64,000 nucleotides of DNA, from contig JBKDBG010000017.1 in the NCBI GenBank assembly GCA_046314755.1, positions 7,626-71,625 on the forward strand. Direction: 5' to 3'. Made by a program: the position numbers and the translations under genes. Positions within the stretch are counted from its first letter, which is position 1; each line of letters opens with the position of its first letter. Under the pieces are notes generated by a model. It did no database searches, was not told where the DNA came from, and worked only from the letters and a program-made list of their open reading frames with translations. Of this stretch, positions 3,368 through 14,266 are shown one piece after another. The stretch is from Bacteroidota bacterium (GTDB taxonomy: Bacteria; Bacteroidota; Bacteroidia; UKL13-3).

Positions 3368-6300
3368 TTAGTTACCAAGTGACCTGGCTAACTTAATTGG
3401 GTTCAAATTATTTAGCCTTAAGGTAAAAGTTATTCTTTGCAAATAACTGTTATGAAAAACATCCCAATTATTGGTTGTAAGTTGATCGGCAAATAGCGGA
3501 AAGTTCACTTGAAAAACATCATCAATCGCCCAAATGCTTAAACCTGTTACATAATAAATGGTTGCTTCATAAATTGTAACACTTGTTCCTGTATTGGCAT
3601 TGGTTTGGGTTGTTTTGCTGTTAACCGCAGCAGCATCAACAAATACACGTATAGGTAATATACCCGGAATTGATGAGGTAAAGTTAGCCGTTAACAACCA
3701 ACTATCAGTTGCGGCCAAGCTTTGCGCATAAGCCCTAAAACCTGAAGTACCCGGCATAATTTGCTGGGTAAATAAGTTGCTTACATTTCCCCTTCCAAAT
3801 TGCGATTCATCATACAAATAATCGTAATAACCATTGTTTTCTGCCAAACGGAACAACACACGCTCATCCTTACCCGACTCCGGTTTGGTTAAAAACGTTC
3901 CCCCGAATACACGAACATTTAACCCTTTGTTTCTTTCACCATAATCAATAGCAGTATTATATTCTGCCCATATCTTTTGAAAAGAACTTTGCGCTTGTCC
4001 GTATTGATAATGAACACTCCAACTTGTGGGATTTAACTTTCGCTTTTGGGTTGAAGTAAAACGAATATCGGTATAGGCAAATGCTTTATCAAAATCACTC
4101 AACAAGGCGCGTGTAAACCTGTTTTCTTGCACCAATACATAACGAATATCCAATTGGTTTTTAGCATCGGTACGTGGTTGTTTTTGATTGAAAATAAAGG
4201 TTATGCGTGGTGCAACTTTCTCATAAGATTTCAAACGATTATCTAAGTCAATGCCACTTCCTGTATATACTCCGTTGCTGTCAAAAAAGTCTTTTGCAAT
4301 ATCACCTTGTAAAGCAAAACGCGCACCCTCTATACCTACTTGTATCTCTCTAAAATAGGCTTGAGGAAAAAAGCGATGCTGTAAGCTAAACGATCCGGTT
4401 AAATCTTTTGTGCCAAAAGCAAACATTGGTGCGACCCAAAATTCAGTATTTTTTCGAGGAAGCATACTGTTATAGAACGCAACACCCAACATGGTTTTGT
4501 TGTACATGTTTGCCCCAATAATAGGGCTGTAGAATATTTGGGTTTTATTCGGCTTTTCGAGATTAACAACAGGAGAAAACTCAAGCGGCATAAGCGTTTT
4601 AAACAATCCCTTAGTTCGTGCATAGTTGTTTCCTCGGTAAACATCCAACGATTGTTCAAGGGCATCTATTCGAATATTCGAGATGTTTTTACCGTAAAAA
4701 CTTATAGATTGTTCTTTTTTAAATCCTGCCAATTTTTGCTCTGCAACCAAAGAGGAATCCGCAAATGCTTGTACATAAACCGGAGCCAAAACACCGCCCT
4801 TATTTTTTAATTTTACATGAACACTATCTCCGCTTTTTTGAACCTTACAAATGGCTACGTCAGGTATTTTTGACGAACCCATCAAATCATCAAAAAACCA
4901 ACTTAAATCTTCTCCGGTAAATGTTTTTGCATGATCCATAAAATCTCCGGGAAGCGGATGTTTAAATTTCCATCTTTCGTAATAGCTTTTCATCATCGCA
5001 TCAAATCTTTCGGTGCCTAAATGTTGTTGCAATTGTAAAAATGCCAATGAAGCCTTACTATAAATGATGGTACCATAGTTTAATGAAGTAAATGCTTCCG
5101 AATTTAACAATGAAGGTTGATCGGTTCGATTACGTGCACTTACCAAGTATTGCAACTGTAACAAACCGAATGATGATTCCGTTAACTGTTCAATAGAAAA
5201 TGATTTTGTTTTTTTGAGATTTGCTAGGCCCGGATGCTTGGTAAATAAAGGCTTGTAGGTGCTTCTTGCTTCATAATAGGTGTTGATACTTTCATCCATC
5301 CATGGATAACTACGCTCGTTGCTGCCTAAAATACCATAAAACCAATTGTGTCCAAGTTCATGTACAATTACTTGCCTTGACACTTCTGTAATATTGGTGA
5401 TAGTTGGGTATTCCATACCTCCACCAGCTTTTAAAGGAGTAACCACAACTGTAGCATGCGCATAAGGATAATTGCCTACATTTTTACTGTAAAATTGAAC
5501 AGCAGAATCTACCCAATGCACAACAGATTCTTTCGGACAAACTTGATAGACCCATGTCATCACTTTATGCCCATTATCCAATTGCACCTCATGGCGTTCT
5601 ATTTGAAATCTTTTATCGGCAAACCAGGCGAAATCATGCACACTGTCTTGCACAAAATGTAAAGTTTTTGTGTTGGAAGAAGAGGCAGGAAATTGAGTGT
5701 TGCAACTAGGGACATTTTCAAAATTTTTGTTGCTCAATTCAAACAGTTTATTCCATTCATCCTCGTTTTGCAGGTTACCTGTTGCTGCCACTAAATAATT
5801 TTCAGGTAATGTAATATTCACCTCAAATCGGCCAAACTCGCTGTAAAACTCACCTTGGTCCAAATAAGGCATAGGGTTCCATCCATTCACATCATAAACA
5901 GCAGGCTTTGGGTACCATTGGGTAATGCAATATTGTTGACCATTGTGGCCCAGTCGTGAAAACACTTCCGGAATTTTAACCCTAAAACTGGTAGTAATCA
6001 TTATTTGTTCACCGGGGTTTAGTGGTTTGTTTAATGTAAGTTTTATGATTTCATAACCATTCACAAAGGCGGTTTTTACTTTTTCGCCATTTATCTTGAA
6101 GTTTAAAGAATCAATTCGACCTCTTTGATCATCCTTAGCATAATAAAAATCCATGTTGCCGTTTTCTACTTGTTGTTTCGCAAATGGGGTTTCATTGTTT
6201 AAGTAGGCGTTAGGCCAAAGGTGAAAGAAAATTTCTTTAAGTGTATCCGGTGAATTGTTATAATAACGTAAGTCTTCAAAACCATGCAATACATGTTTGA

Positions 6301-6424
6301 TATCATCCAACCGAACATCTATAGTGTAATCAACCCTTTGTTGCCAAGGGGCTTGACGAATGAGTTGAGCCTGAGCAGCGATAAAACCTACACAAAACAA
6401 TAAAACACCAAGTATTTTTCTCAT
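3368..6424 (-). CDS. M1-family zinc metallopeptidase (aminopeptidase N-like) with a signal peptide and a long C-terminal extension
   Basis: A 1018-aa ORF. The N-terminal signal peptide is MRKILGVLLFCVGFIAAQAQ. The gluzincin motif is VHELGHNWFYGILGSNERSYPWMDESINTYYE (HEXXH followed by a downstream E). The roughly 450-aa C-terminal region has no recognisable family. Confidence 0.85.
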   Translation of the reverse strand: MRKILGVLLFCVGFIAAQAQLIRQAPWQQRVDYTIDVRLDDIKHVLHGFEDLRYYNNSPDTLKEIFFHLWPNAYLNNETPFAKQQVENGNMDFYYAKDDQRGRIDSLNFKINGEKVKTAFVNGYEIIKLTLNKPLNPGEQIMITTSFRVKIPEVFSRLGHNGQQYCITQWYPKPAVYDVNGWNPMPYLDQGEFYSEFGRFEVNITLPENYLVAATGNLQNEDEWNKLFELSNKNFENVPSCNTQFPASSSNTKTLHFVQDSVHDFAWFADKRFQIERHEVQLDNGHKVMTWVYQVCPKESVVHWVDSAVQFYSKNVGNYPYAHATVVVTPLKAGGGMEYPTITNITEVSRQVIVHELGHNWFYGILGSNERSYPWMDESINTYYEARSTYKPLFTKHPGLANLKKTKSFSIEQLTESSFGLLQLQYLVSARNRTDQPSLLNSEAFTSLNYGTIIYSKASLAFLQLQQHLGTERFDAMMKSYYERWKFKHPLPGDFMDHAKTFTGEDLSWFFDDLMGSSKIPDVAICKVQKSGDSVHVKLKNKGGVLAPVYVQAFADSSLVAEQKLAGFKKEQSISFYGKNISNIRIDALEQSLDVYRGNNYARTKGLFKTLMPLEFSPVVNLEKPNKTQIFYSPIIGANMYNKTMLGVAFYNSMLPRKNTEFWVAPMFAFGTKDLTGSFSLQHRFFPQAYFREIQVGIEGARFALQGDIAKDFFDSNGVYTGSGIDLDNRLKSYEKVAPRITFIFNQKQPRTDAKNQLDIRYVLVQENRFTRALLSDFDKAFAYTDIRFTSTQKRKLNPTSWSVHYQYGQAQSSFQKIWAEYNTAIDYGERNKGLNVRVFGGTFLTKPESGKDERVLFRLAENNGYYDYLYDESQFGRGNVSNLFTQQIMPGTSGFRAYAQSLAATDSWLLTANFTSSIPGILPIRVFVDAAAVNSKTTQTNANTGTSVTIYEATIYYVTGLSIWAIDDVFQVNFPLFADQLTTNNWDVFHNSYLQRITFTLRLNNLNPIKLARSLGN

Positions 6425-6521
6425 GTGCGCAATATACTTTAAAAGCCATTTTTTAAATATGGTTTTTAATAAACGGTGGTTTTACGAGGTTGTTGTGTTG
6501 AACGGAGGGTTAGGGAATGTG

Positions 6522-9500
6522 TTACCTTCTGTTTTTAAGTTGCTCAGCCTCTTGCAGCGTAACCCTGCGTCCGTTGTAGTAAGCACTAATAAAGGCATCA
6601 TTAAAGCCGAGCGAGCTTAATAAACGTAAGGTAGCGATACAATCGGCTTCGTTATTAAACTGACCACTTAAAACCCGCACAAAATCATTGTCAATAATTT
6701 CGTACATAATATCCGGTATTCCTCTAAACGCCTCTGGGTTTAGCGGTTTTCTAAATGCGCCTAGCTGAACGGTATACACCAATTCGCGAACATTGTTTAC
6801 GTCAATTTTATCTTTTAAGAAATTATCAAGGGCCTTATCGGTAATCACCGGCCTTGCCCTTCTTACAATAATTGGTTCATCTGGAATTACAACAGGTGGT
6901 GTATTAGTATTGGGTTGAAGGTTGCTCTGAGTGGCCGATTTATTGAGAGATGAAGCCGTATCTATAATTGCCCCGGATGAAGAGAACCTTTTAACACTCA
7001 CTTTTCTCCTCTTTTCAACAATGTTAAATGTCACAAAAATGCTTTCTACATCTTTATCTATTTTTACCTGAATATTGTTTTGCAATAAGGTATATCGATT
7101 ACCCAAAACCTTTTCATCAAAAATAATTTTGTAATCACCATAAGGAGCATAAAAAACAAATGACCCATCGTTCTCTGTAAGCGTATGAATTTCTTTTCCG
7201 TTCTGCGCAGTAATTTTTATCCCACCCAATTCGGGCAGAAACGAAATTTTCTCCGAAAGCACATCTTTATCAACGTGCACCTTGCCATAAATTTTCACCC
7301 CCTTTACAAAAGGCACTGCTACATATTCCTTGTCTAAATAATTTTTAGCCACCAAAATGGTATCCGCAACATTCGGAAAATACCCATTTAACTCTTCCAA
7401 ACTAAACGCTCCAAATTCGTACAAACCACCCGGCATATTTATCAATTTTGCTCTTCCTTTCTCATTGGTAAGCACGTCCCATCCGTTTACTCTTATCACA
7501 ATATTTTCAAGCAAATACTCATCATTATCTTTTACATGATTTCCATTCACATCAACAAAGGCAATAAAATTAGCGGTATAATATCTGCTATTTGAAAACG
7601 GATTTTTTATGCCAAATACTTTTCGAATACCAACATTTGCCATAACATTTTGTGAACTTGTTACGCCTGATTCCTCAGAAACGCCAGTAAGGCCCGACTG
7701 ATTAAAAAACACTACGTTGTTGTTGTTCTTCGTAAAATAGTATCCGAGTTGTAACCTAAAGCGCCAATTATTATCAGTGTAATAATTTAACTCCGGCATA
7801 TAGCTAAACGTTTGGCGCTCATTTTGGCTATAATAAGTGTAGCCTACAAACTGTTGCAAGATAAAATGTGTGTTTCTAAATTGGTATTGGTGATTTAGTG
7901 CGGCAGAAAAAATTTGTGGAGTAACAATAACCGGAGTATTGCCAAGACTAACTGTTCCAATATTGCCATATGCATATCTAATATTAGCCGAGTAAGTTCT
8001 ATATCTGGCCATGCTAAAAAACTGTACAAAGAAATAATCTCTTTGCGGAGTAAGAAACAGCGGACGGTTATATCCTGCCAGCAATGATGCTGAAACCAGC
8101 TGGTTCTTTTCGTAATCAAAACTACCCACATTAAAACTAACCCCTCTGGAATGAACCTCTTTTAAATTCACACTTGAGATGTTATAAAATCCGCCCGTAG
8201 AGAAGAAGGCTTGGCCAACATTTTTATTTACCGATACCTGATTATTGACATTTAAATAGCGATTGGTTGGAAGAAACACATTTCCTGTAAAGATATCGCT
8301 GCGTTGATTGTAGTTATGAATAAGCGTAATGGTTGTTTTCTCATTGTATTTGAAATAAATATTGGCATTTCCTATGTAGGTTTCTCCATCGTTTTGAAAA
8401 GATGATTTAGGAGAGAAATAAGAAAAGGAAAGATTAGATGTTAAGTTGTTTTTTCTTAAAAAAGTACCGGAGTGATTTACTCGAGCCAAATAGCCGGAGT
8501 TAGATGGCCCTGCAGAAGGGATATGATTTGCAATAATGATTCCAAATGAAATACTTTGCGTAGAGCCAAACCCTTGACTCATACTTAATCCATAGTAATC
8601 AGTTATAAAATTCGCACTCAACTGATTTGATCTGGTAAATCCGGAACTGATTTGTGTTCGTTTTAATCGAATGTTGTGAGATACACCATAGCCTTCTGAA
8701 GAATATCCTAATACGTTAGGGCCACCAAAAAGTAGTAATGGATTTTTGGTATAAAAACCACCAATACTTTGTGTTTTTGATATTCGATACATGCCACCTA
8801 TACCTCTTCCGGGAACGGCAAAAGTAGCATTGCTTTCGGGCGCACCACCAATATCTCCTGTAATAATGGAGTACTTTTTATCATACAATCCAACAAAAAA
8901 GCTCGAGTACCTTAAGTAATTATCTGTGTAATAATTCGTGCTGAAATTGGTTTGGAATTGATACATTAAATTAGCACCGTTATCCAACATGGTATTGCCT
9001 CTTAATAACACATTCACAAGAGGAGATCCGGTTGCCAAACTGTTAATATTTGCGTCTAAAATAAGTGGAAAATAAGCATAACCGAATGGTGTTATTTTTA
9101 CTTCGTTCCCCAACCGAACAAAGTCAACCTTTTTGCTTTTTTGTAAAGCACGGCTTCCAAGAGCCTTCGACTCACTTGTTTTTATATAAATAGAGTAGGT
9201 TTTAGTTTCGTCTTCAGTTATTGGGCGATGTGATTCTGTATCAATAAAACGCAAATTTCTTACACCTTCTACCGTACTAACCATATAATGAAACATCGTA
9301 TCGCCTCCAACGCCTAAATTAATATCTTTAAATGTGTTGGAAACAATTTTTCCTGAAGTATCGGTTACAGAAAGTTGTGCCCTATAATTTTCTACAGAAA
9401 CGGAAAGCGGCTGTTCTTCATTTCCTAAGTTGAACACGCCAAAGCTTAAGTCTGTGGTGGTTTGTTTGTTTTTGAAATATATTTTTCCGGGATTGAGCAA

Positions 9501-9983
9501 GTTAATATCCCAATTCCCTATTCGTTTACGATAGGCGAAGAAACTGGATGTTCCAATTACATTACCCGATTCCTCACTTACGTATATGGTGATTAGATAT
9601 TTAGTGTTTCCTTTGATTTTTCCTTGGGGAATTATGTTAACCGGAAGGTATAATTCTTCTTGTGGGCCAATGGTATAAGTTCTTTCAGAAAAGGCGGTTC
9701 TTTTCCACTCGGGAGGAGCTGAAACAGATATTTTAATTCTTCGTTCAGTCCCTTCTAGGTTTAATAATATGATGGTTTTAGAAATGGGTTCTCCAGGTAT
9801 AATTTGTTCCGTGGTATCATCCATAAAAAAAGCTACCAATGTGGTGCTTGACTGTTTAAATAATTTATTATTGATAAGGGTATCACTTGTTTGAGCGCTT
9901 ACCGTATGGTAAACAAACAAACAACTGCACCAAATGATGAGTTGTAAAAGAAGATTGCGATATGAGGTTAGGGGGTGGGTCAA
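6522..9983 (-). CDS. Large outer-membrane protein with usher-like architecture: signal peptide, an N-terminal beta-sandwich region, a roughly 650-aa Y/F/G-rich beta-barrel-like core, two carboxypeptidase-regulatory-like Ig domains, an S/T/N/P linker and a C-terminal SPOR domain
   Basis: A 1153-aa ORF with signal peptide ...FVYHTVSAQ. The middle region is dominated by alternating aromatic/small-residue beta-strand patterns (for example FSYFSPKSSFQNDGETYIGNANIYFKYNE). IKITAQNGKEIHTLTENDGSFVFYAPYGDYKIIF fits the CarboxypepD_reg-like pattern. The C-terminus VYTVQLGAFRKPLNPEAFRGIPDIMYEIIDNDFVRVLSGQFNNEADCIATLRLL fits a SPOR repeat. The usher assignment is an inference from domain order and not from recognised sequence identity. 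Confidence 0.65.
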   Translation of the reverse strand: MTHPLTSYRNLLLQLIIWCSCLFVYHTVSAQTSDTLINNKLFKQSSTTLVAFFMDDTTEQIIPGEPISKTIILLNLEGTERRIKISVSAPPEWKRTAFSERTYTIGPQEELYLPVNIIPQGKIKGNTKYLITIYVSEESGNVIGTSSFFAYRKRIGNWDINLLNPGKIYFKNKQTTTDLSFGVFNLGNEEQPLSVSVENYRAQLSVTDTSGKIVSNTFKDINLGVGGDTMFHYMVSTVEGVRNLRFIDTESHRPITEDETKTYSIYIKTSESKALGSRALQKSKKVDFVRLGNEVKITPFGYAYFPLILDANINSLATGSPLVNVLLRGNTMLDNGANLMYQFQTNFSTNYYTDNYLRYSSFFVGLYDKKYSIITGDIGGAPESNATFAVPGRGIGGMYRISKTQSIGGFYTKNPLLLFGGPNVLGYSSEGYGVSHNIRLKRTQISSGFTRSNQLSANFITDYYGLSMSQGFGSTQSISFGIIIANHIPSAGPSNSGYLARVNHSGTFLRKNNLTSNLSFSYFSPKSSFQNDGETYIGNANIYFKYNEKTTITLIHNYNQRSDIFTGNVFLPTNRYLNVNNQVSVNKNVGQAFFSTGGFYNISSVNLKEVHSRGVSFNVGSFDYEKNQLVSASLLAGYNRPLFLTPQRDYFFVQFFSMARYRTYSANIRYAYGNIGTVSLGNTPVIVTPQIFSAALNHQYQFRNTHFILQQFVGYTYYSQNERQTFSYMPELNYYTDNNWRFRLQLGYYFTKNNNNVVFFNQSGLTGVSEESGVTSSQNVMANVGIRKVFGIKNPFSNSRYYTANFIAFVDVNGNHVKDNDEYLLENIVIRVNGWDVLTNEKGRAKLINMPGGLYEFGAFSLEELNGYFPNVADTILVAKNYLDKEYVAVPFVKGVKIYGKVHVDKDVLSEKISFLPELGGIKITAQNGKEIHTLTENDGSFVFYAPYGDYKIIFDEKVLGNRYTLLQNNIQVKIDKDVESIFVTFNIVEKRRKVSVKRFSSSGAIIDTASSLNKSATQSNLQPNTNTPPVVIPDEPIIVRRARPVITDKALDNFLKDKIDVNNVRELVYTVQLGAFRKPLNPEAFRGIPDIMYEIIDNDFVRVLSGQFNNEADCIATLRLLSSLGFNDAFISAYYNGRRVTLQEAEQLKNRR

Positions 9984-9986
9984 ATA

Positions 9987-10631
9987 TTACAATCCTTCTC
10001 GAAGACAAAATTTCACATTAAGCAAGTAAACTCCCGGCTGTAAGTTTAAAGTAGGACGAATGCGGTAATCAACAGTAAAACTATACTCGCCATAATTAGT
10101 TATGTGCGAACCCGGTCTATTCACATTCGTTCCCGTACAAGTTCCACCGGCATTACTAACTCCGGGGCTATTTACGATGGGAATGTTTGTTGCAGTTGAT
10201 GGTAATGAAACGTAATTTGTACCTGTTAGTGAGGTATTACATGTATTGCGAAAACGCATTTCCAATAAACTCACTTGTGGCATTGGTGATGAAGTAGTGC
10301 CATACATCATAATGTTTTCCCACTCTGTTGCAGGAGATGCATTATTATCTAAATGTACACTTAAAAACCAACGGCAATCAGAAGGAGGAGCTGCATTTTC
10401 AGCAACAATAATTTTATACACCGATTGGCCGAATAGATTTACGCCTCGCAAATAATCGCCAAAAGAATAAAAAGTGAAGTTTATTACAGGCTCCCCTGTA
10501 AGTTCAATTTGAGATCCGGCACCGATACCACTGCAATTAGCTGTAGTAATGGGGGTACAAGAGGTTTGTGCTTTTATGCATAATGTGCTACTTAGTAAAC
10601 ACAATATGCCAATGAATATCTTGCCGTTCAT
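9987..10631 (-). CDS. Small secreted T/S/N/G-rich protein, a candidate fibre subunit and paralog of the next gene
   Basis: A 214-aa ORF with signal peptide MNGKIFIGILCLLSSTLCIKAQ. The C-terminal motif EYSFTVDYRIRPTLNLQPGVYLLNVKF is shared with the 290-aa neighbour (SDYRYVIDYRILPNLP...PGVYTMYVKY). It lies 3 bp upstream of the 1153-aa gene. Confidence 0.6.
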   Translation of the reverse strand: MNGKIFIGILCLLSSTLCIKAQTSCTPITTANCSGIGAGSQIELTGEPVINFTFYSFGDYLRGVNLFGQSVYKIIVAENAAPPSDCRWFLSVHLDNNASPATEWENIMMYGTTSSPMPQVSLLEMRFRNTCNTSLTGTNYVSLPSTATNIPIVNSPGVSNAGGTCTGTNVNRPGSHITNYGEYSFTVDYRIRPTLNLQPGVYLLNVKFCLREGL

Positions 10632-10685
10632 AAGTAAATTTTAAAAGCGGGCACTTAATGTGCCCGCTTTAATTTTGCTTTTTGA

Positions 10686-11558
10686 CTATTGGTCTTGAGC
10701 TAAAATATATTTTACATACATGGTGTATACACCAGGCTGAGCGTAAGTTGCGCCATCACCGGTTAATGTAGTTGCACCATCAGCAGCAATCATATATGGA
10801 GCTGTTGCATTGGTAGCGTTAACAGGGTTTGGAGCTACACGCATGTGGGCAGGAAAAGTTACCGGTAAGTTTGGTAAAATACGGTAATCAATTACATAAC
10901 GATAGTCTGACGTGTTTGCGTTAGAGTTTAGGATGTAACTACCACCTGCAATACTACATCCGGCACCTGTTCCTGTTCCACCTGCAATATACTTCTCAGA
11001 AGTACCTGCAGCGTTGGTTGAGGTAGGTGAAGTGTAAGGAGTAGTTGGGTTCGGGCAGTAAATATTGTTGTTACCCGGAGTCATGGTAGAGGTAGCTGCG
11101 GTTGTGATTGGTTGGAATACCGTAGAATAATCACTAGAAGCGGCAACTGTAGTTAAACAAGTTCCGATTGATGGATTACCGGGGAACTGTCTTAATTCAA
11201 GTGCAGTTAGTGGAATATCATCAGTTGCTCCGGTTGCTGAAGCGTACTCAACCGGATTATCCCATAAGAAGTTACCTTCTTGTCCTTGTGATAAACCTGC
11301 TGCCCATAAGTCGAAACTTACAGTAGCACTTACCTTAAGTATTGTAGCACCATACTTTACAATACCGGCATAGTACTCGTTAATTTCGTCAAATGTAAAG
11401 TCAAGTTGATCCGGACCTTCCATTTTTAATTGAAGAATAGGCTGTAAATCCATTGTAATGGTTACATTCTTCTCATCTTGCAACTGAGCAAAAGCTCCGT
11501 TAGTAAGCACCACAGCTCCCAGAGCCATGAATACTTTTCTGAGTTTAGTTGTTTTCAT
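10686..11558 (-). CDS. Small secreted T/S/N/G-rich protein, a candidate fibre subunit and paralog of the 214-aa protein
   Basis: A 290-aa ORF with signal peptide MKTTKLRKVFMALGAVVLTNGAFAQ. After the signal peptide there is an alternating hydrophobic stretch, VTITMDLQPILQLKM. The C-terminal DYRILP...PGVY motif is shared with the 214-aa protein. Confidence 0.6.
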   Translation of the reverse strand: MKTTKLRKVFMALGAVVLTNGAFAQLQDEKNVTITMDLQPILQLKMEGPDQLDFTFDEINEYYAGIVKYGATILKVSATVSFDLWAAGLSQGQEGNFLWDNPVEYASATGATDDIPLTALELRQFPGNPSIGTCLTTVAASSDYSTVFQPITTAATSTMTPGNNNIYCPNPTTPYTSPTSTNAAGTSEKYIAGGTGTGAGCSIAGGSYILNSNANTSDYRYVIDYRILPNLPVTFPAHMRVAPNPVNATNATAPYMIAADGATTLTGDGATYAQPGVYTMYVKYILAQDQ

Positions 11559-11578
11559 AAATTTTTAATTATGAGTTG

Positions 11579-12484
11579 TTATTTTTTGGGTTTTTGTTGT
11601 TTAGTTAAATTGCCAATTTCAAATTCAAGTTCTGCCGCTTCCAAAGTTTCGTCACTTCCAAAATCAAGAATTACTGAGGCTATATATTTTCCGGGGGGCA
11701 ATTCACCGGGTAAGGTAAAATCAAAGTTTCTTTCCTTTTTAGGGAATATGGTAAATTGCTTTGATGACAGTTTTGTTTTATATCCATTGTTAATATTCGT
11801 AAGTTCAATAAACATACGTGAAAAGCCTAAACCATCACCGGTATTAAAGGCCGTTGCATAAATTACACCTTTACTGTTTTGTGTGGTATCAGCAGAACCA
11901 ACAAATTTCAACTTGGTAAGTTCTAACTTATTTACTTTTACGTTTGGCGGATTTTGGAACATGTACACAGCAAAACCAAATGTTGGAATAATACCCATGG
12001 CAATGGCTTTTCCATCGGCATTTTTGGGTGCAATGGCTTGTCGCTCCTTCATCTGATCAATCATTAGCATGGTCCAGCCGGCTCGGTAACAATTTGCCGA
12101 ATCAGGCACAGCCAGGGTAATGGCAATCTTTTTGGCTTCACCCGGCTTCAACTCAACAAATGATGGTGAAATAGAAATCCACTTAGAAATGCCGTACTCG
12201 TGTTGCACATTGGCAGGCAGTTGTGTCACGGCCCCCCTATCACTCATGTCATAATCAGTTACACTAATCTTAAACTTTTCAGGATTTTTAGTATCATTAG
12301 TAATGGTTACATATTTTGTATCTGAATAACCCGGTATGGTAGTAAATTTTACCATAGAAGGCGCTACAGCCACGCCTAAATTGGTTATTGAATCTTTCAA
12401 TAATGGTTGTTGTGACTGCTGCGCAAACGCAATTAAAAATGAAAAAACGCTTACTGTTAATACAAGGAGTTTCCTAATGAACAT
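11579..12484 (-). CDS. Periplasmic two-beta-sandwich-domain protein, a candidate PapD-like pilus chaperone
   Basis: A 301-aa ORF with signal peptide ...FLIAFAQQ. The first domain, GVAVAPSMVKFTTIPGYSDTKYVTITNDTKNPEKFKISV...PSFVELKPGEAKKIAITLAVPD, follows the PapD/MSP-like strand pattern (vfPp..p.eq.ltv.N....p..f...v...P.f..L.Pge...i.i). The second domain, FTIFPKKERNFDFTLPGELPPGKYIASVILDF, is also beta-rich. It is the first gene of the four-gene operon, with a 20-bp gap to the next gene. The chaperone call is an inference. Confidence 0.45.
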   Translation of the reverse strand: MFIRKLLVLTVSVFSFLIAFAQQSQQPLLKDSITNLGVAVAPSMVKFTTIPGYSDTKYVTITNDTKNPEKFKISVTDYDMSDRGAVTQLPANVQHEYGISKWISISPSFVELKPGEAKKIAITLAVPDSANCYRAGWTMLMIDQMKERQAIAPKNADGKAIAMGIIPTFGFAVYMFQNPPNVKVNKLELTKLKFVGSADTTQNSKGVIYATAFNTGDGLGFSRMFIELTNINNGYKTKLSSKQFTIFPKKERNFDFTLPGELPPGKYIASVILDFGSDETLEAAELEFEIGNLTKQQKPKK

Positions 12485-12794
12485 GTTATTTTTTTATTTG
12501 AATAGCTTTTTATCAATATTAGATAAATATACAAGGGACTCAAATTAAAATAATTTAATACACCGCGGCTTTTCTTATTTTTCGGCACAAAAAGGCTAAA
12601 ACCGTATAATTAAGTGTACAAAATGACGGTTAACTCAATGACATTTGACAATAATTAACTTAAATTTTCTAAAAAATTAATCCCCTTCAGAGGCATCAGC
12701 TTGTCTTGTCAATTACAATTATTGATTAATCATAAACATTTTGCATTGATAATTACCGTATTTATTAAGGCGCGGTGCGTTATTTGTGCCTAAG

Positions 12795-12829
12795 TTTTAG
12801 CAATGGAGCACTTTTTGACGTTATATTTG
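12795..12829 (+). promoter_or_regulatory. Candidate Bacteroidetes sigma-A-type promoter (-7 element TAtaTTTG) for the TPR gene
   Basis: TATATTTG at 12822-12829 matches the Bacteroidetes -7 consensus TAnnTTTG, 25 nt upstream of the ATG at 12854. A T-rich stretch (AGTTTTAG) lies about 22 nt further upstream, but the -33 TTG is not clean. Confidence 0.3.
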
Positions 12830-12853
12830 TTTATCATATAATTATTAAAGGTT

Positions 12854-14266
12854 ATGGATGGTGATGATTTTTTGGATGAAGAAGTGCAACCGGTACTTCA
12901 GCGTTATGAAAAGATGCTGAAAAATAAAACGAAGGAATTTTTTGAAGCTGAAGAGCTTGAAGACATATGTGATTATTATCTGCGGAAAGATAAATTAAAG
13001 AAGGCCCTTGAGGTGGTTTATTTTGCAGAGGAGTTCTATCCATTATATGTAGGCTTTATGATTCAAAAGGCCGAAATATTTGCAGGGCTAGGTAAATTAG
13101 ATGATGCCATAGAGGTATTAGACAAAGCAGAACTGTATGAACCCAACAACGAAGACTTATTCCTAATTCGCGGAGAGGTGTTTCTGTTTAAAAACCAAAT
13201 TGATTTTGCCGAAGAATGTTTTGAGCGAGCACTTGATTTAGCCTCAGACAAGGTAACCATGTTGTTTGATATTGCTTACGCTTACGAGGAAGAAGACAAG
13301 CAAGATTTTGCACACAAATATTTTAAAATGGTGTTGGAAGAGGAAGAAGAAAATGAAGAAGCACACTTTGCTATTGCACAATTGTTTGATGAACAAGGCG
13401 AATTTGACAAGGCGGTTGAATACTTAAATAAACTTATTGATGTGGATCCTTACAACAACACAGCATGGTTTAATCTTGGTGTTACCTACAGCAAAATGAG
13501 CCTGTTTGAAAAAGCTGTTGAAGCCTTCGACTTTTGTATTACCATTGATGAAGAATTTGATGGTGCACATTTTCACAAGGCTAATGCATTGGTGGAACTA
13601 GATGAATACGAAAAAGCCATTGAGGTGTATTTGGAATGCGTTAAACATTTTGGCCCTGATGCCATAACGTATTGCAACTTGGCCAGTTGTTACGAACAAA
13701 ACAACGAACATTTAAAGGCCAGAGAATATTACAAAATGGCCACCAAAATCAATCCAAACATTGCCGAAGCATGGTTTGGAATTGGATTAACCTATGACAA
13801 AGAAGATGCGGTTAAACAAGCCATTCCATACTTTAAACGCGCAATATTACTTGATGCAGAAAACACAGATTTTTTATTCGCACTTGCAGAAGCAGAATAT
13901 AAAATTGGTAAGGTTGATGAAGCGGTTACCATCTATGAAGAAATTTTAGAAATCAACCCCTATTTATACGAGGCTTGGCTCGATTGGTCGTATGTGCTGT
14001 TTGTTGAACAACGCACACAAGAGGCGATTGCGCTACTTTTTAACGCCTTAAAACATTTTCCAGAACAACATCAAATTTACTATCGTTTATGTTGTTATTT
14101 ATTTGATACGGGGAAAACAAAATCAGCATTGGAGTATCTGGAAAAAGCACTTAGCATAAATGCAGATGATAGTTTTTTGATTTACGAAATCATGCCAGAA
14201 TTACAACACGTTACTGACATTACAAATACCATAGCAGCATATAAAAACAACAATGAAAAACTTTAA
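12854..14266 (+). CDS. Tetratricopeptide (TPR) repeat protein
   Basis: A 470-aa ORF with multiple 34-residue TPR-like repeats (EEAHFAIAQLFDEQGEFDKAVEYLNKLIDVDPYNNTAWFNLGVTYSKMSLFEKAVEAFDFCITIDEE... and AEAWFGIGLTYDKEDAVKQAIPYFKRAILLDAEN). It is acidic and has no signal peptide. Confidence 0.85.
   Translation: MDGDDFLDEEVQPVLQRYEKMLKNKTKEFFEAEELEDICDYYLRKDKLKKALEVVYFAEEFYPLYVGFMIQKAEIFAGLGKLDDAIEVLDKAELYEPNNEDLFLIRGEVFLFKNQIDFAEECFERALDLASDKVTMLFDIAYAYEEEDKQDFAHKYFKMVLEEEEENEEAHFAIAQLFDEQGEFDKAVEYLNKLIDVDPYNNTAWFNLGVTYSKMSLFEKAVEAFDFCITIDEEFDGAHFHKANALVELDEYEKAIEVYLECVKHFGPDAITYCNLASCYEQNNEHLKAREYYKMATKINPNIAEAWFGIGLTYDKEDAVKQAIPYFKRAILLDAENTDFLFALAEAEYKIGKVDEAVTIYEEILEINPYLYEAWLDWSYVLFVEQRTQEAIALLFNALKHFPEQHQIYYRLCCYLFDTGKTKSALEYLEKALSINADDSFLIYEIMPELQHVTDITNTIAAYKNNNEKL

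What the first reader, a model, noticed from the sequence alone, without database searches (positions are those of the whole stretch)
6522..12484. Candidate chaperone-usher-like fibre assembly operon with a SPOR-anchored outer-membrane barrel
Four co-oriented minus-strand genes sit with gaps of 20, 54 and 3 bp. The first encodes a periplasmic protein of two beta-sandwich domains, whose first domain follows the PapD/MSP-like strand pattern. The next two encode paralogous small secreted T/S/N/G-rich proteins with an alternating-hydrophobic N-terminal stretch and a shared C-terminal DYRIxP...PGVY motif. The last encodes a 1153-aa outer-membrane protein whose domain order mirrors that of fimbrial ushers. 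That order is an N-terminal beta-sandwich, a roughly 650-aa beta-barrel-like core, and two Ig/CarboxypepD_reg-like C-terminal domains. In addition it carries a C-terminal SPOR peptidoglycan-binding domain. Neither gamma-type chaperone-usher pili nor Csu/spore-coat-U-type pili are a recognised feature of Bacteroidetes, whose described pili are the lipoprotein type V pili. I do not recall an usher-like barrel carrying a SPOR domain in any chaperone-usher clade. None of the four proteins has a family signature I recognise with confidence, so this may be a divergent or new surface-fibre assembly system.
Basis: partly seen in the sequence, partly recalled or inferred. Interest (0 to 1): 0.8.

Follow-up and report, generated by a model that had tools for sequence, protein, structure and literature searches.

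The report
Gene cluster for TLP-1 pond pili
This four-gene Bacteroidota operon encodes the subunit of the "TLP-1" tubular pili, which were solved by cryo-EM from pond water in 2024 with no known host or assembly machinery, and it places that subunit next to a chaperone-like protein and an usher-like outer-membrane barrel that probably build the fibre.

Summary
Four intact, co-oriented minus-strand genes are present: A (301 aa), B (290 aa), C (214 aa) and D (1153 aa), with gaps of 20, 54 and 3 bp. The A-B-C-D order is kept in nearly every related Bacteroidota locus with enough flank.

C is a B paralogue without the donor strand. In some genomes it is fused in front of a B-like domain through a donor-strand-like linker.

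A belongs to a divergent branch of DUF916 / WxL-interacting proteins.

D is modelled as N-terminal Ig-like domains, a barrel of about 26 strands, two C-terminal sandwich domains and a sub-threshold SPOR tail. Its best structural matches are full-length FimD and PapC ushers. It has no plug, no Usher or PapD Pfam match, and no profile-level homology to E. coli ushers or chaperones.

Verdict: a real, undescribed chaperone-usher-like pathway for an already imaged fibre. The chaperone and usher roles are inferred, not shown.

The parts
11579..12484 (-). Gene A, 301 aa. Sec-exported soluble protein of the DUF916 / WxL-interacting-protein (WxLIP_PGBD) type with no C-terminal TM helix. Candidate periplasmic chaperone.
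   Evidence: ORF. Pfam WxLIP_PGBD 20.9 bits (cutoff 27.3), plus fn3_5 and MSP, all below their cutoffs. 61 of 67 family members hit PF06030 at E<=0.01 (best 1.9e-7), 26 hit MSP, 1 hits PapD_N and 1 hits WxLIP_HBD. Several homologues carry a precomputed PF06030 hit, and NCBI names one of them a DUF916 protein. No homology to E. coli chaperones by hhalign.
10686..11558 (-). Gene B, 290 aa. Major pilin, homologue of the TLP-1a/b fibril protomer.
11427..11489 (-). Codons for B residues 24-44 (QLQDEKNVTITMDLQPILQL). This is the N-terminal extension, the predicted donor strand.
   Evidence: It is the most conserved segment of the family: mean column conservation 0.84 against 0.63 for the mature protein, with Q39, P40, L42, Q43 and L44 invariant. 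It is coil with pLDDT 60-75 in the monomer model. It is nearly identical to the TLP-1 beta1 strand (LISEQNVTVTMDLQPVLQL), which inserts into protomer n from protomer n+4.
10644..10670 (-). GC-rich hairpin with a U-rich tail in the 54-bp B-C spacer. Candidate attenuator or mRNA stabiliser placed after the major-subunit gene.
   Evidence: 11-bp stem with 7 GC pairs. Sequence. Fold energy -19.9 kcal/mol. Hairpins of unrelated sequence (-17 to -23 kcal/mol, followed by T-runs) sit at the same position in L001, L012, L013, L014, L015, L016, L017 and L021. The short 33-34 nt spacers of L002-L010 do not have one.
9987..10631 (-). Gene C, 214 aa. B paralogue lacking the donor strand, Cys-rich. Candidate tip (cap) subunit or base nucleator.
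   Evidence: BLASTP to B gives E 2e-7. Alignment A4 shows a CX7C loop in place of the donor strand. It is conserved as the third gene in related loci. In L012, L015 and L017 a C-like domain is fused through a donor-strand-like linker (LEIEIQEILHLQM) to a B-like domain.
6522..9983 (-). Gene D, 1153 aa. Outer-membrane protein with usher-like architecture. Candidate assembly and secretion platform.
9096..9839 (-). D residues 49-296: two Ig-like N-terminal domains, weakly similar to A and to WxLIP.
7605..9074 (-). D residues 304-793: predicted beta-barrel of about 26 strands, with no plug-sized insertion.
   Evidence: The DSSP strand list gives 26 long strands. The longest loops are 15-21 residues. 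Barrel pLDDT is mostly 70-90.
7014..7583 (-). D residues 801-990: two C-terminal beta-sandwich domains (CTD1, CTD2) of prealbumin / CarboxypepD_reg type.
   Evidence: Weak Pfam SpaA hit at residues 923-986. CarboxypepD_reg, SdrD_B and SpaA hits at the equivalent positions in homologues.
6528..6782 (-). D residues 1068-1152: SPOR-like peptidoglycan-binding tail, preceded by a disordered linker (residues 993-1050).
   Evidence: SPOR scores 17.7 bits (cutoff 21), E 0.0045, covering profile positions 5-73 of 76 when the tail is scanned alone; the P0012 tail scores 23.9 bits; P0310 scores 34.5 bits. The predicted secondary structure alternates strands and helices. The tail is present in 30 of 107 full-length family representatives.

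Best explanation
The operon builds a TLP-1-type pilus by a chaperone-usher-like route that uses non-canonical parts.

Shown:
- B is a homologue of the TLP-1 protomer. It has a conserved N-terminal donor strand and an Ig-like core that needs that strand from another subunit.
- The four genes form a conserved module across aquatic Bacteroidota.
- D has usher-like architecture.

Inferred:
1. All four proteins are exported by Sec and cleaved before Gln.
2. In the periplasm, the soluble DUF916/WxLIP-like protein A caps the open groove of B and C by inserting a strand. This keeps them folded and unpolymerised.
3. D sits in the outer membrane. Its Ig-like N- and C-terminal domains face the periplasm and, in this lineage, a SPOR tail is pinned to peptidoglycan. 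D recruits A:subunit complexes and passes subunits through its barrel of about 26 strands.
4. C has a groove but no donor strand. It enters first and ends up as the distal cap.
5. Each incoming B gives its N-terminal strand to an earlier subunit.
6. The 8-nm, four-protofilament tubule forms outside the cell.
7. A hairpin after B sets high A and B expression and low C and D expression.
For: - The TLP-1b sequence is up to 55% identical to the B genes of loci that all carry A-B-C-D.
- The donor strand and the last strand are the most conserved parts of B.
- Synteny is conserved.
- A belongs to the DUF916/WxLIP branch. For WxLIP, AF2 complex predictions show a strand completing the partner's sandwich (PMC10599100). 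A crystal entry titled 'WxLIP bound to long WxL' exists (9i25); I did not examine it.
- D's best structural matches are full-length ushers, and its domain order is NTDs-barrel-CTD1-CTD2.
- D is the only outer-membrane protein in the module. B has no T9SS C-terminal domain, since its C-terminus is retained in the fibre, and no lipobox.
- C lacks the donor strand. Natural fusions of C, donor-strand linker and B mimic engineered donor-strand-complemented constructs.
- A terminator-like hairpin follows B in 9 of 17 loci, with unrelated sequences.
Against: - No experiment or complex model links A to B, and A's structure was not predicted.
- D shows no plug-sized insertion.
- D and A have no Pfam Usher or PapD membership and no profile-profile similarity to E. 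coli ushers or chaperones.
- The D model is of only moderate quality (pLDDT 68.7, pTM 0.43).
- TLP-1 uses n+4 strand exchange, so the fibre consists of four strand-linked chains. A single-file usher mechanism does not simply account for that.
- Chaperone-free donor-strand fibres exist (TasA, archaeal cannulae, bundling pili).
- Gene order (A first, co-expressed with B at a high level) differs from fim, pap and csu.
Confidence: 0.6

Rival explanations
1. Secrete-then-nucleate model, as for curli or TasA. D is only a secretion pore and/or peptidoglycan-tethered anchor. C has an open groove and no donor strand, so it sits on the cell surface as a nucleator or anchor at the base. B monomers polymerise extracellularly at the distal end without usher catalysis. 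A is a periplasmic holdase, or is co-secreted.
For: - The four-protofilament n+4 architecture, and the 8-nm width, must in any case assemble outside the barrel.
- Chaperone-free donor-strand fibres are known.
- D has no plug and no sequence homology to ushers.
- C's lack of a donor strand fits a base nucleator as well as a tip.
Against: - D carries usher-like periplasmic N- and C-terminal Ig domains, and its best matches are full-length ushers. A passive pore would have little use for them.
- A strictly co-conserved periplasmic DUF916-like protein is expressed with B.
- An exposed-groove monomer would need protection all the way to the surface.
Confidence: 0.25
2. WxL-cluster analogue. A is not a chaperone but a structural adaptor, as proposed for Gram-positive WxLIP. 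It binds the fibre base by strand insertion and links it to the envelope. D is a peptidoglycan-anchored outer-membrane dock, and export uses another route.
For: - A family members match WxLIP_PGBD.
- The one-WxLIP-plus-two-small-secreted-proteins layout mirrors the commonest WxL cluster.
- D's N-terminal part resembles WxLIP structurally.
- D has a SPOR tail.
Against: - A lacks the TM helix, and essentially lacks the DUF3324 (HBD) signature: 1 of 67 members.
- The SPOR tail is absent from about 70% of D homologues.
- No other export signal is present in B.
Confidence: 0.1
3. The four genes are functionally unrelated neighbours, and D is an ordinary porin or transporter.
Against: - A-B-C-D order is conserved with D identity as low as about 26%, across freshwater and marine Bacteroidota.
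- C and D are 3 bp apart here and abut or overlap in other loci.
- Foldseek clearly prefers full-length ushers.
Confidence: 0.03

Closest known systems
TLP-1a / TLP-1b fibrils (PDB 9IKJ, 9IKK; Wang et al., 'CryoSeek', PNAS 2024, PMC11494351)
   Different: The window protein comes from another lineage and has longer variable surface loops. TLP-1 was described only as a structure. Its species and machinery were reported unknown, and it had no match in the authors' own metagenome or mass spectrometry. This locus supplies host phylum, operon, minor subunit and candidate machinery.
Classical and archaic chaperone-usher pili (Fim, Pap, Csu/CupE)
   Same: An operon containing a subunit, a donor-strand-less paralogue, a periplasmic Ig-like protein and a large outer-membrane barrel flanked by Ig-like domains. 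Polymerisation is by donor-strand exchange. D's best structural matches are FimD and PapC. An attenuator-like hairpin follows the major subunit gene; my recollection is that papA has a comparable one.
   Different: No Usher, PapD_N/C or SCPU Pfam hits, and no profile-profile homology. The model has about 26 strands and no plug, whereas ushers have 24 strands plus a plug. The chaperone candidate is DUF916-type. Strand exchange is n+4, giving a four-chain tubule, not n+1. There is an optional SPOR tail. The host phylum is Bacteroidota.
WxL clusters of Firmicutes (WxLIP = DUF916 + DUF3324 + TM helix, plus short and long WxL proteins)
   Same: A is a distant DUF916 relative. The layout of one WxLIP-like gene plus two small secreted beta-sandwich genes matches. 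WxLIP is predicted to complete its partner's sandwich with a strand.
   Different: WxL clusters belong to monoderm hosts and have no outer-membrane component. WxLIP has a TM helix and a DUF3324 domain, which A lacks. B and C show no detectable WxL domain.
Type V pili of Bacteroidota (FimA / Mfa1)
   Same: Same phylum, and polymerisation by strand exchange.
   Different: By my knowledge of the family, type V pilins are lipoprotein precursors matured by proteolysis and have no chaperone or usher. Here all four proteins have non-lipoprotein signal peptides, and B's fold matches TLP-1 and not FimA or Mfa1.
Chaperone-free donor-strand fibres (TasA, archaeal bundling pili, threads, cannulae)
   Different: Those systems have no dedicated outer-membrane barrel or periplasmic partner. 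The structural similarity to B is marginal.

Membership tests
TLP-1 pilin family (9IKJ/9IKK) | Full-length sequence and fold homology to the TLP-1 protomer | tested here: met
   [not shown]
TLP-1 pilin family (9IKJ/9IKK) | N-terminal extension that serves as the donor strand, and a mature N-terminus directly after the signal peptide | tested here: met
   B residues 24-44 align with TLP beta1 and are almost identical to it. This is the most conserved segment and is unstructured in the monomer model. The strand exchange itself is taken from the paper and was not tested for this protein.
Fimbrial usher (Pfam Usher PF00577; FimD/PapC) | Sequence membership, by Pfam Usher hit or profile homology to known ushers | tested here: not met
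   No Usher hit for D or for six homologues. hhalign of the D family against FimD/SfmD/HtrE/YraJ gives probability below 1%, E about 0.1. PDB profile search finds nothing.
Fimbrial usher (Pfam Usher PF00577; FimD/PapC) | Domain order: periplasmic NTD, large barrel, CTD1, CTD2 | tested here: met
   AF2 secondary structure and domain layout. The top 7 Foldseek hits are full-length FimD, over 800-950 alignment columns.
Fimbrial usher (Pfam Usher PF00577; FimD/PapC) | Plug domain inserted in the barrel (between strands 6 and 7), and a 24-strand barrel | tested here: not met
   The model shows about 26 strands and no loop longer than about 21 residues. The model is of moderate confidence and its coordinates could not be inspected.
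PapD-like periplasmic chaperone | PapD_N and PapD_C domains, or profile homology to known chaperones | tested here: not met
   PapD_N hits 1 of 67 members at E 0.0033; PapD_C hits none. hhalign against FimC/SfmC/YadV/YraI gives probability 1%. MSP (Motile_Sperm) hits 26 of 67 members weakly; my recollection is that MSP belongs to the PapD-like clan.
PapD-like periplasmic chaperone | Two Ig-like domains in a boomerang, a donor G1 strand, and basic cleft residues that hold the subunit's C-terminus | not tested
Only indirect evidence is available, from WxLIP similarity.
WxL-interacting protein (WxLIP: DUF916 + DUF3324 + TM helix) | DUF916 / WxLIP_PGBD domain (PF06030) | tested here: inconclusive
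   The window protein scores 20.9 bits against a cutoff of 27.3. 61 of 67 family members hit at E<=0.01, best 1.9e-7. Several homologues carry a precomputed PF06030 hit and one has an NCBI DUF916 name.
WxL-interacting protein (WxLIP: DUF916 + DUF3324 + TM helix) | DUF3324 / HBD domain and a C-terminal TM helix | tested here: not met
   WxLIP_HBD hits 1 of 67 members. A ends in a polar tail (...EFEIGNLTKQQKPKK) with no hydrophobic helix.
WxL-interacting protein (WxLIP: DUF916 + DUF3324 + TM helix) | Adjacent WxL-domain proteins (PF13731) | tested here: not met
   [not shown]
SPOR domain (PF05036) | Pfam SPOR match above the gathering score | tested here: inconclusive
   The window tail scores 17.7 bits against a cutoff of 21, covering profile positions 5-73 of 76. 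The homologous tail of P0012 scores 23.9 bits and P0310 scores 34.5 bits. The predicted secondary structure alternates strands and helices.
Type V pilus (FimA/Mfa1) | Lipoprotein signal peptide with a lipobox Cys on the pilin precursor | tested here: not met
   The B signal peptide ends ...GAFA|QLQ with no Cys. The mature TLP-1 chain starts at the equivalent position.
T9SS cargo | Cleavable C-terminal sorting domain | tested here: not met
   No Por_Secre_tail hit. The C-terminal strand of B aligns to the last residues present in the assembled TLP-1 fibre.

The most novel reading that the evidence does not exclude
This is the founding genetic description of a third, phylum-wide class of donor-strand-exchange pilus pathway in Bacteroidota. 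It combines a DUF916/WxLIP-type periplasmic chaperone with a plug-less, usher-like barrel of about 26 strands that carries its own WxLIP-like N-terminal module and, in some lineages, a SPOR anchor. It assembles four-protofilament tubular pili (TLP-1) that are abundant in natural waters. Through protein A it ties the enigmatic Gram-positive WxL surface clusters to chaperone-assisted strand-complementation systems.
Probability: 0.45. Interest if true: 0.88.

Novelty: new variant of a known kind. Interest (0 to 1): 0.78.

Why it matters
- TLP-1 fibrils are among the most conspicuous objects seen by cryo-EM in pond water, yet the authors could name neither the organism nor the machinery. This locus assigns them to aquatic Bacteroidota and gives a complete candidate biogenesis module.
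- The operon also occurs in a cultured strain, Wenyingzhuangia aestuarii DSM 105044 (L018), so the open question can now be tested directly.
- It suggests that chaperone-usher-style assembly exists in a phylum thought to rely on lipoprotein type V pili. The parts are too diverged, or convergent, to be recognised by the existing family models.
- It offers a functional hint, strand-donating chaperone or adaptor, for the widespread DUF916 family of Gram-positive bacteria.
- The n+4 exchange poses a new mechanistic problem: how does one outer-membrane platform feed four strand-linked chains?

Tried and rejected
- Pfam and NCBIfam scans of all four proteins gave no significant family: no Usher, PapD, SCPU or WxL, and no SPOR for full-length D.
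- PDB sequence searches with D, A, the A profile, the D profile and P0042 gave only chance hits (GFP, synaptotagmin) and a weak EfmWxLIP1 match at E 0.32.
- hhalign of the D family against four E. coli ushers, and of the A family against four E. coli chaperones, found no homology.
- The A to D N-terminus similarity looked promising at probability 60%. It fell to 11% with a broader D alignment, so I keep it only as a weak lead.
- The AFDB fold libraries were unavailable, so the spread of the B fold outside this family could not be checked.
- Literature searches for a described gene cluster, usher or chaperone for TLP-1, or for DUF916 in Bacteroidota, found nothing.
- TonB-dependent receptor, porin, T9SS cargo and type V pilin readings were all rejected (see the membership tests).
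Full report
**1. The observation**

One search confirms four intact minus-strand ORFs:
- A, 12484..11579, 301 aa.
- B, 11558..10686, 290 aa.
- C, 10631..9987, 214 aa.
- D, 9983..6522, 1153 aa, with a TTG start.

The spacers are 20, 54 and 3 bp. Each protein starts with a signal-peptide-like segment that ends just before Gln (A ...AFA|QQ, B ...AFA|QL, C ...KA|QT, D ...SA|QT). None has a lipobox cysteine. B and C are weak paralogues (23% identity, E 2e-7) and share the DYRI.P...PGVY motif. Only one copy of the module is present in the window.

**2. Family scans**

Pfam and NCBIfam give nothing above threshold.
- A has sub-threshold fn3_5, WxLIP_PGBD (DUF916) and MSP hits.
- B has none. C has only a weak Wzt_C hit, far below its cutoff.
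- D has only weak Ig-type hits: FixG_C at 71-149 and SpaA at 923-986.

Sequence searches against the PDB with A and D give chance hits only.

**3. Conservation**

- The first search found only 15 D homologues. A full profile search found 3098 cluster representatives at E<=1e-3, of which 220 are at E<=1e-30.
- B has 704 homologues, none with a Pfam domain.
- A has 71 homologues. Several carry a precomputed PF06030 hit, and NCBI names one a DUF916 protein.
- The exact A and B proteins come from a 'Bacteroidota bacterium' MAG.
- Loci found through distant D homologues (27-28% identity) keep the same four genes in the same order.
- A scan of species-representative genomes gave 20 loci, all Bacteroidota. 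They include freshwater lake, reservoir and pond MAGs, Crocinitomicaceae, and the cultured Wenyingzhuangia aestuarii DSM 105044.
- A script using HMMs for A, B and D plus phmmer for C shows A-B-C-D in every locus with enough flank. The one exception is L011, where the order is C-D followed by A-B about 2.5 kb downstream.

**4. What B is**

The AF2 model of B is confident (pLDDT 90.3, pTM 0.82). It has a beta-rich core and an unstructured N-terminal segment, residues 24-43.

The B-family profile matches 9ikk and 9ikj over their full length, at E 6.6e-56 and 1.1e-54.

The source paper (PMC11494351) describes TLP-1a/b as follows:
- They are 8-nm homopolymeric helical tubules with a 15-Å lumen, isolated from Tsinghua Lotus Pond water.
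- The N-terminal strand beta1 of protomer n+4 inserts between beta2 and beta7 of protomer n to complete an Ig-like fold.
- The authors state that the species is unidentified, and that neither their metagenome nor mass spectrometry matched.
- Their best AFDB hit was an unannotated Flavobacteriales protein.
- Later CryoSeek papers and citing papers do not describe a gene cluster, chaperone or usher.

I rebuilt the TLP-1b sequence from the HMMER alignment. It is 49-55% identical to the B genes of L021, L001, L016, L022, L013 and L014, all of which sit in A-B-C-D operons. It begins at residue 24 of those precursors.

In the B family the donor segment (residues 24-44) is the most conserved stretch, with mean conservation 0.84. 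The last strand follows at 0.81. The mature protein overall scores 0.63.

B is therefore a TLP-1-type major pilin with high confidence.

**5. What C is**

C-family members share B's core motifs. In place of the donor strand they have a Cys-x7-Cys loop, and they carry further conserved cysteines.

In L012, L015 and L017 the third gene is 441-461 aa. It consists of a C-like domain, a linker resembling the donor strand (…LEIEIQEILHLQM…) and a B-like domain ending in EDQ. This is the topology of engineered donor-strand-complemented pilins. It argues that C's groove is filled by a B-type donor strand.

A subunit with a groove and no donor strand must lie at one end of a strand-linked chain. That end is the distal tip if growth is from the base, as in chaperone-usher pili. 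It is the base if growth is distal.

**6. What A is**

- 61 of 67 family members hit WxLIP_PGBD (PF06030) at E<=0.01, with a best E of 1.9e-7. In addition, 26 hit MSP, 24 hit Cep192_D6, 1 hits PapD_N and 1 hits WxLIP_HBD.
- In Firmicutes, WxLIP consists of two Ig-like domains at right angles plus a TM helix. It is encoded next to two WxL proteins. AF2 complexes predict that a WxLIP hairpin strand fills a gap in the WxL sandwich (PMC10599100).
- PDB entries for WxLIP alone (9i1y) and for 'WxLIP bound to long WxL' (9i25) exist.
- A lacks the TM helix and has a polar C-terminus, so by default it is a soluble periplasmic protein.
- hhalign against four E. coli chaperones shows no homology (probability 1%).

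**7. What D is**

The AF2 model is of moderate quality (pLDDT 68.7, pTM 0.43; barrel mostly 70-90). It shows:
- two Ig-like domains, residues 49-296;
- about 26 long strands, residues 304-793, with no loop longer than about 21 residues, so no plug-sized insert;
- two sandwich domains, residues 801-990;
- a disordered linker, residues 993-1050;
- an alpha/beta tail, residues 1068-1152.

Structural comparisons:
- Foldseek is more discriminating. The seven best hits are full-length FimD (E 5e-13 to 6e-11, 800-950 alignment columns) and PapC follows at 5e-9. TonB-dependent transporters and LptD reach only 1e-6 to 1e-5. WxLIP bound to WxL (9i25_C) scores 2.7e-5.

At sequence level there is no link to ushers. 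There is no Pfam Usher hit, and hhalign against FimD/SfmD/HtrE/YraJ gives probability below 1%.

The tail scanned alone matches SPOR at 17.7 bits, below the 21-bit cutoff, across almost the whole profile. Homologous tails reach 23.9 and 34.5 bits. Of 107 full-length family representatives, 30 carry this tail, 60 stop after CTD2 and 12 have other C-terminal extensions.

A's two domains align weakly to D's N-terminus. The probability is 60% with the 16-sequence alignment but only 11% with 106 sequences, while the barrel and CTD controls give nothing. This is a lead, not a finding.

**8. Regulation**

The B-C spacer holds an 11-bp GC-rich hairpin followed by a U-rich tail, at 10644-10670. Equivalent hairpins with unrelated sequences (-17 to -23 kcal/mol, followed by T-runs) follow the B gene in eight other loci. 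The clade with 33-34 nt spacers lacks them. This fits a highly expressed major subunit, co-expressed with A, and lower expression of C and D. C and D are 3 bp apart here and abut or overlap elsewhere, which suggests translational coupling.

**9. Mechanism and caveats**

The best-supported reading is a chaperone-usher-like pathway built from non-canonical parts: Sec export, capping of the subunit groove by A, recruitment and translocation by D, C as the first or terminal subunit, and B polymerising by donor-strand exchange outside the cell.

Shown: the identity and donor strand of B, the conserved module, and D's usher-like architecture.

Inferred: the A:B complex, translocation through D, and C's position.

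The main difficulties are these:
- D has no plug.
- Neither A nor D is detectably homologous in sequence to known chaperones or ushers.
- The D model is only moderately confident.
- The n+4 exchange implies four parallel strand-linked chains per fibre. A single-file usher does not obviously explain this.

The main rival is a curli/TasA-style secrete-then-nucleate model, with D as pore or anchor and C as base nucleator.

**10. Novelty**

The fibre itself is published, so B is a new member of a known structural family. The operon, the host phylum, the minor subunit and the candidate machinery are not described in the literature I could search. That machinery comprises a DUF916-type chaperone candidate and a plug-less usher-like barrel with an optional SPOR anchor. 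I rate the finding a new variant of a known kind, namely donor-strand-exchange pili assembled by a periplasmic partner and an outer-membrane platform. Interest is high because an orphan environmental structure now has genes and a cultured host, which makes the question directly testable.

Noticed in passing
window 10644-10670 (B-C spacer): Strong palindromic hairpin (AAAGCGGGCAC-ATTAA-GTGCCCGCTTT, -19.9 kcal/mol) with a U-rich tail directly after the major pilin gene. Hairpins of unrelated sequence occupy the same position in eight other loci.
   Followed up: yes
L012:4479-5804, L015:4010-5335, L017:4609-5994: In these loci the third gene is a 441-461 aa natural fusion of a C-like domain, a donor-strand-like linker and a B-like domain. 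It resembles an engineered donor-strand-complemented pilin.
   Followed up: partly
L001:9275-11986; L016:7036-9725; L022:9553-12251; P0015 contig: In several loci of the clade whose B genes are closest to TLP-1, D is followed directly by a gene for an FKBP_C-domain protein of about 520 aa. In L001, L016 and L022 a gene of about 375 aa follows that; the L001 copy carries a Pfam WG_beta_rep hit. The FKBP protein may be an extra folding factor. Neither gene is present in the window.
   Followed up: partly
L001:37-2598, L014:100-2811, L021:52-2814; L002:1-5329: Large repetitive proteins lie just upstream of gene A in several loci. In L002 the upstream gene encodes a protein of more than 3182 aa with Ig-like repeats and a T9SS Por_Secre_tail. 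The window instead has a divergently oriented TPR gene at 12854-14266.
   Followed up: no
window 3368-6424 (minus strand): A 1018-aa M1-family metallopeptidase-like gene (HExxH; Pfam Peptidase_M1, E 4e-12) lies 97 bp downstream of D and is co-oriented with it. No terminator-like site was found between them. The FKBP-type (L001) and AIRS-type (L002) genes downstream of D in other loci differ from it, so it is probably not part of the module.
   Followed up: partly
PDB 9ikk against L021:4180-5001: The TLP-1b sequence is 55% identical to the B gene of a freshwater MAG deposited as 'Chitinophaga pinensis isolate GE-03apr19-264', and 49-53% identical to other lake MAGs. The unknown TLP-1 producer is therefore probably a freshwater Bacteroidota of this clade.
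   Followed up: partly
[not shown]
   Followed up: partly
L011 (C-D at 5224-9351; A-B at 11928-13855): This is the one locus with a rearranged module: C-D comes first, and A-B lies about 2.5 kb downstream on the same strand.
   Followed up: no
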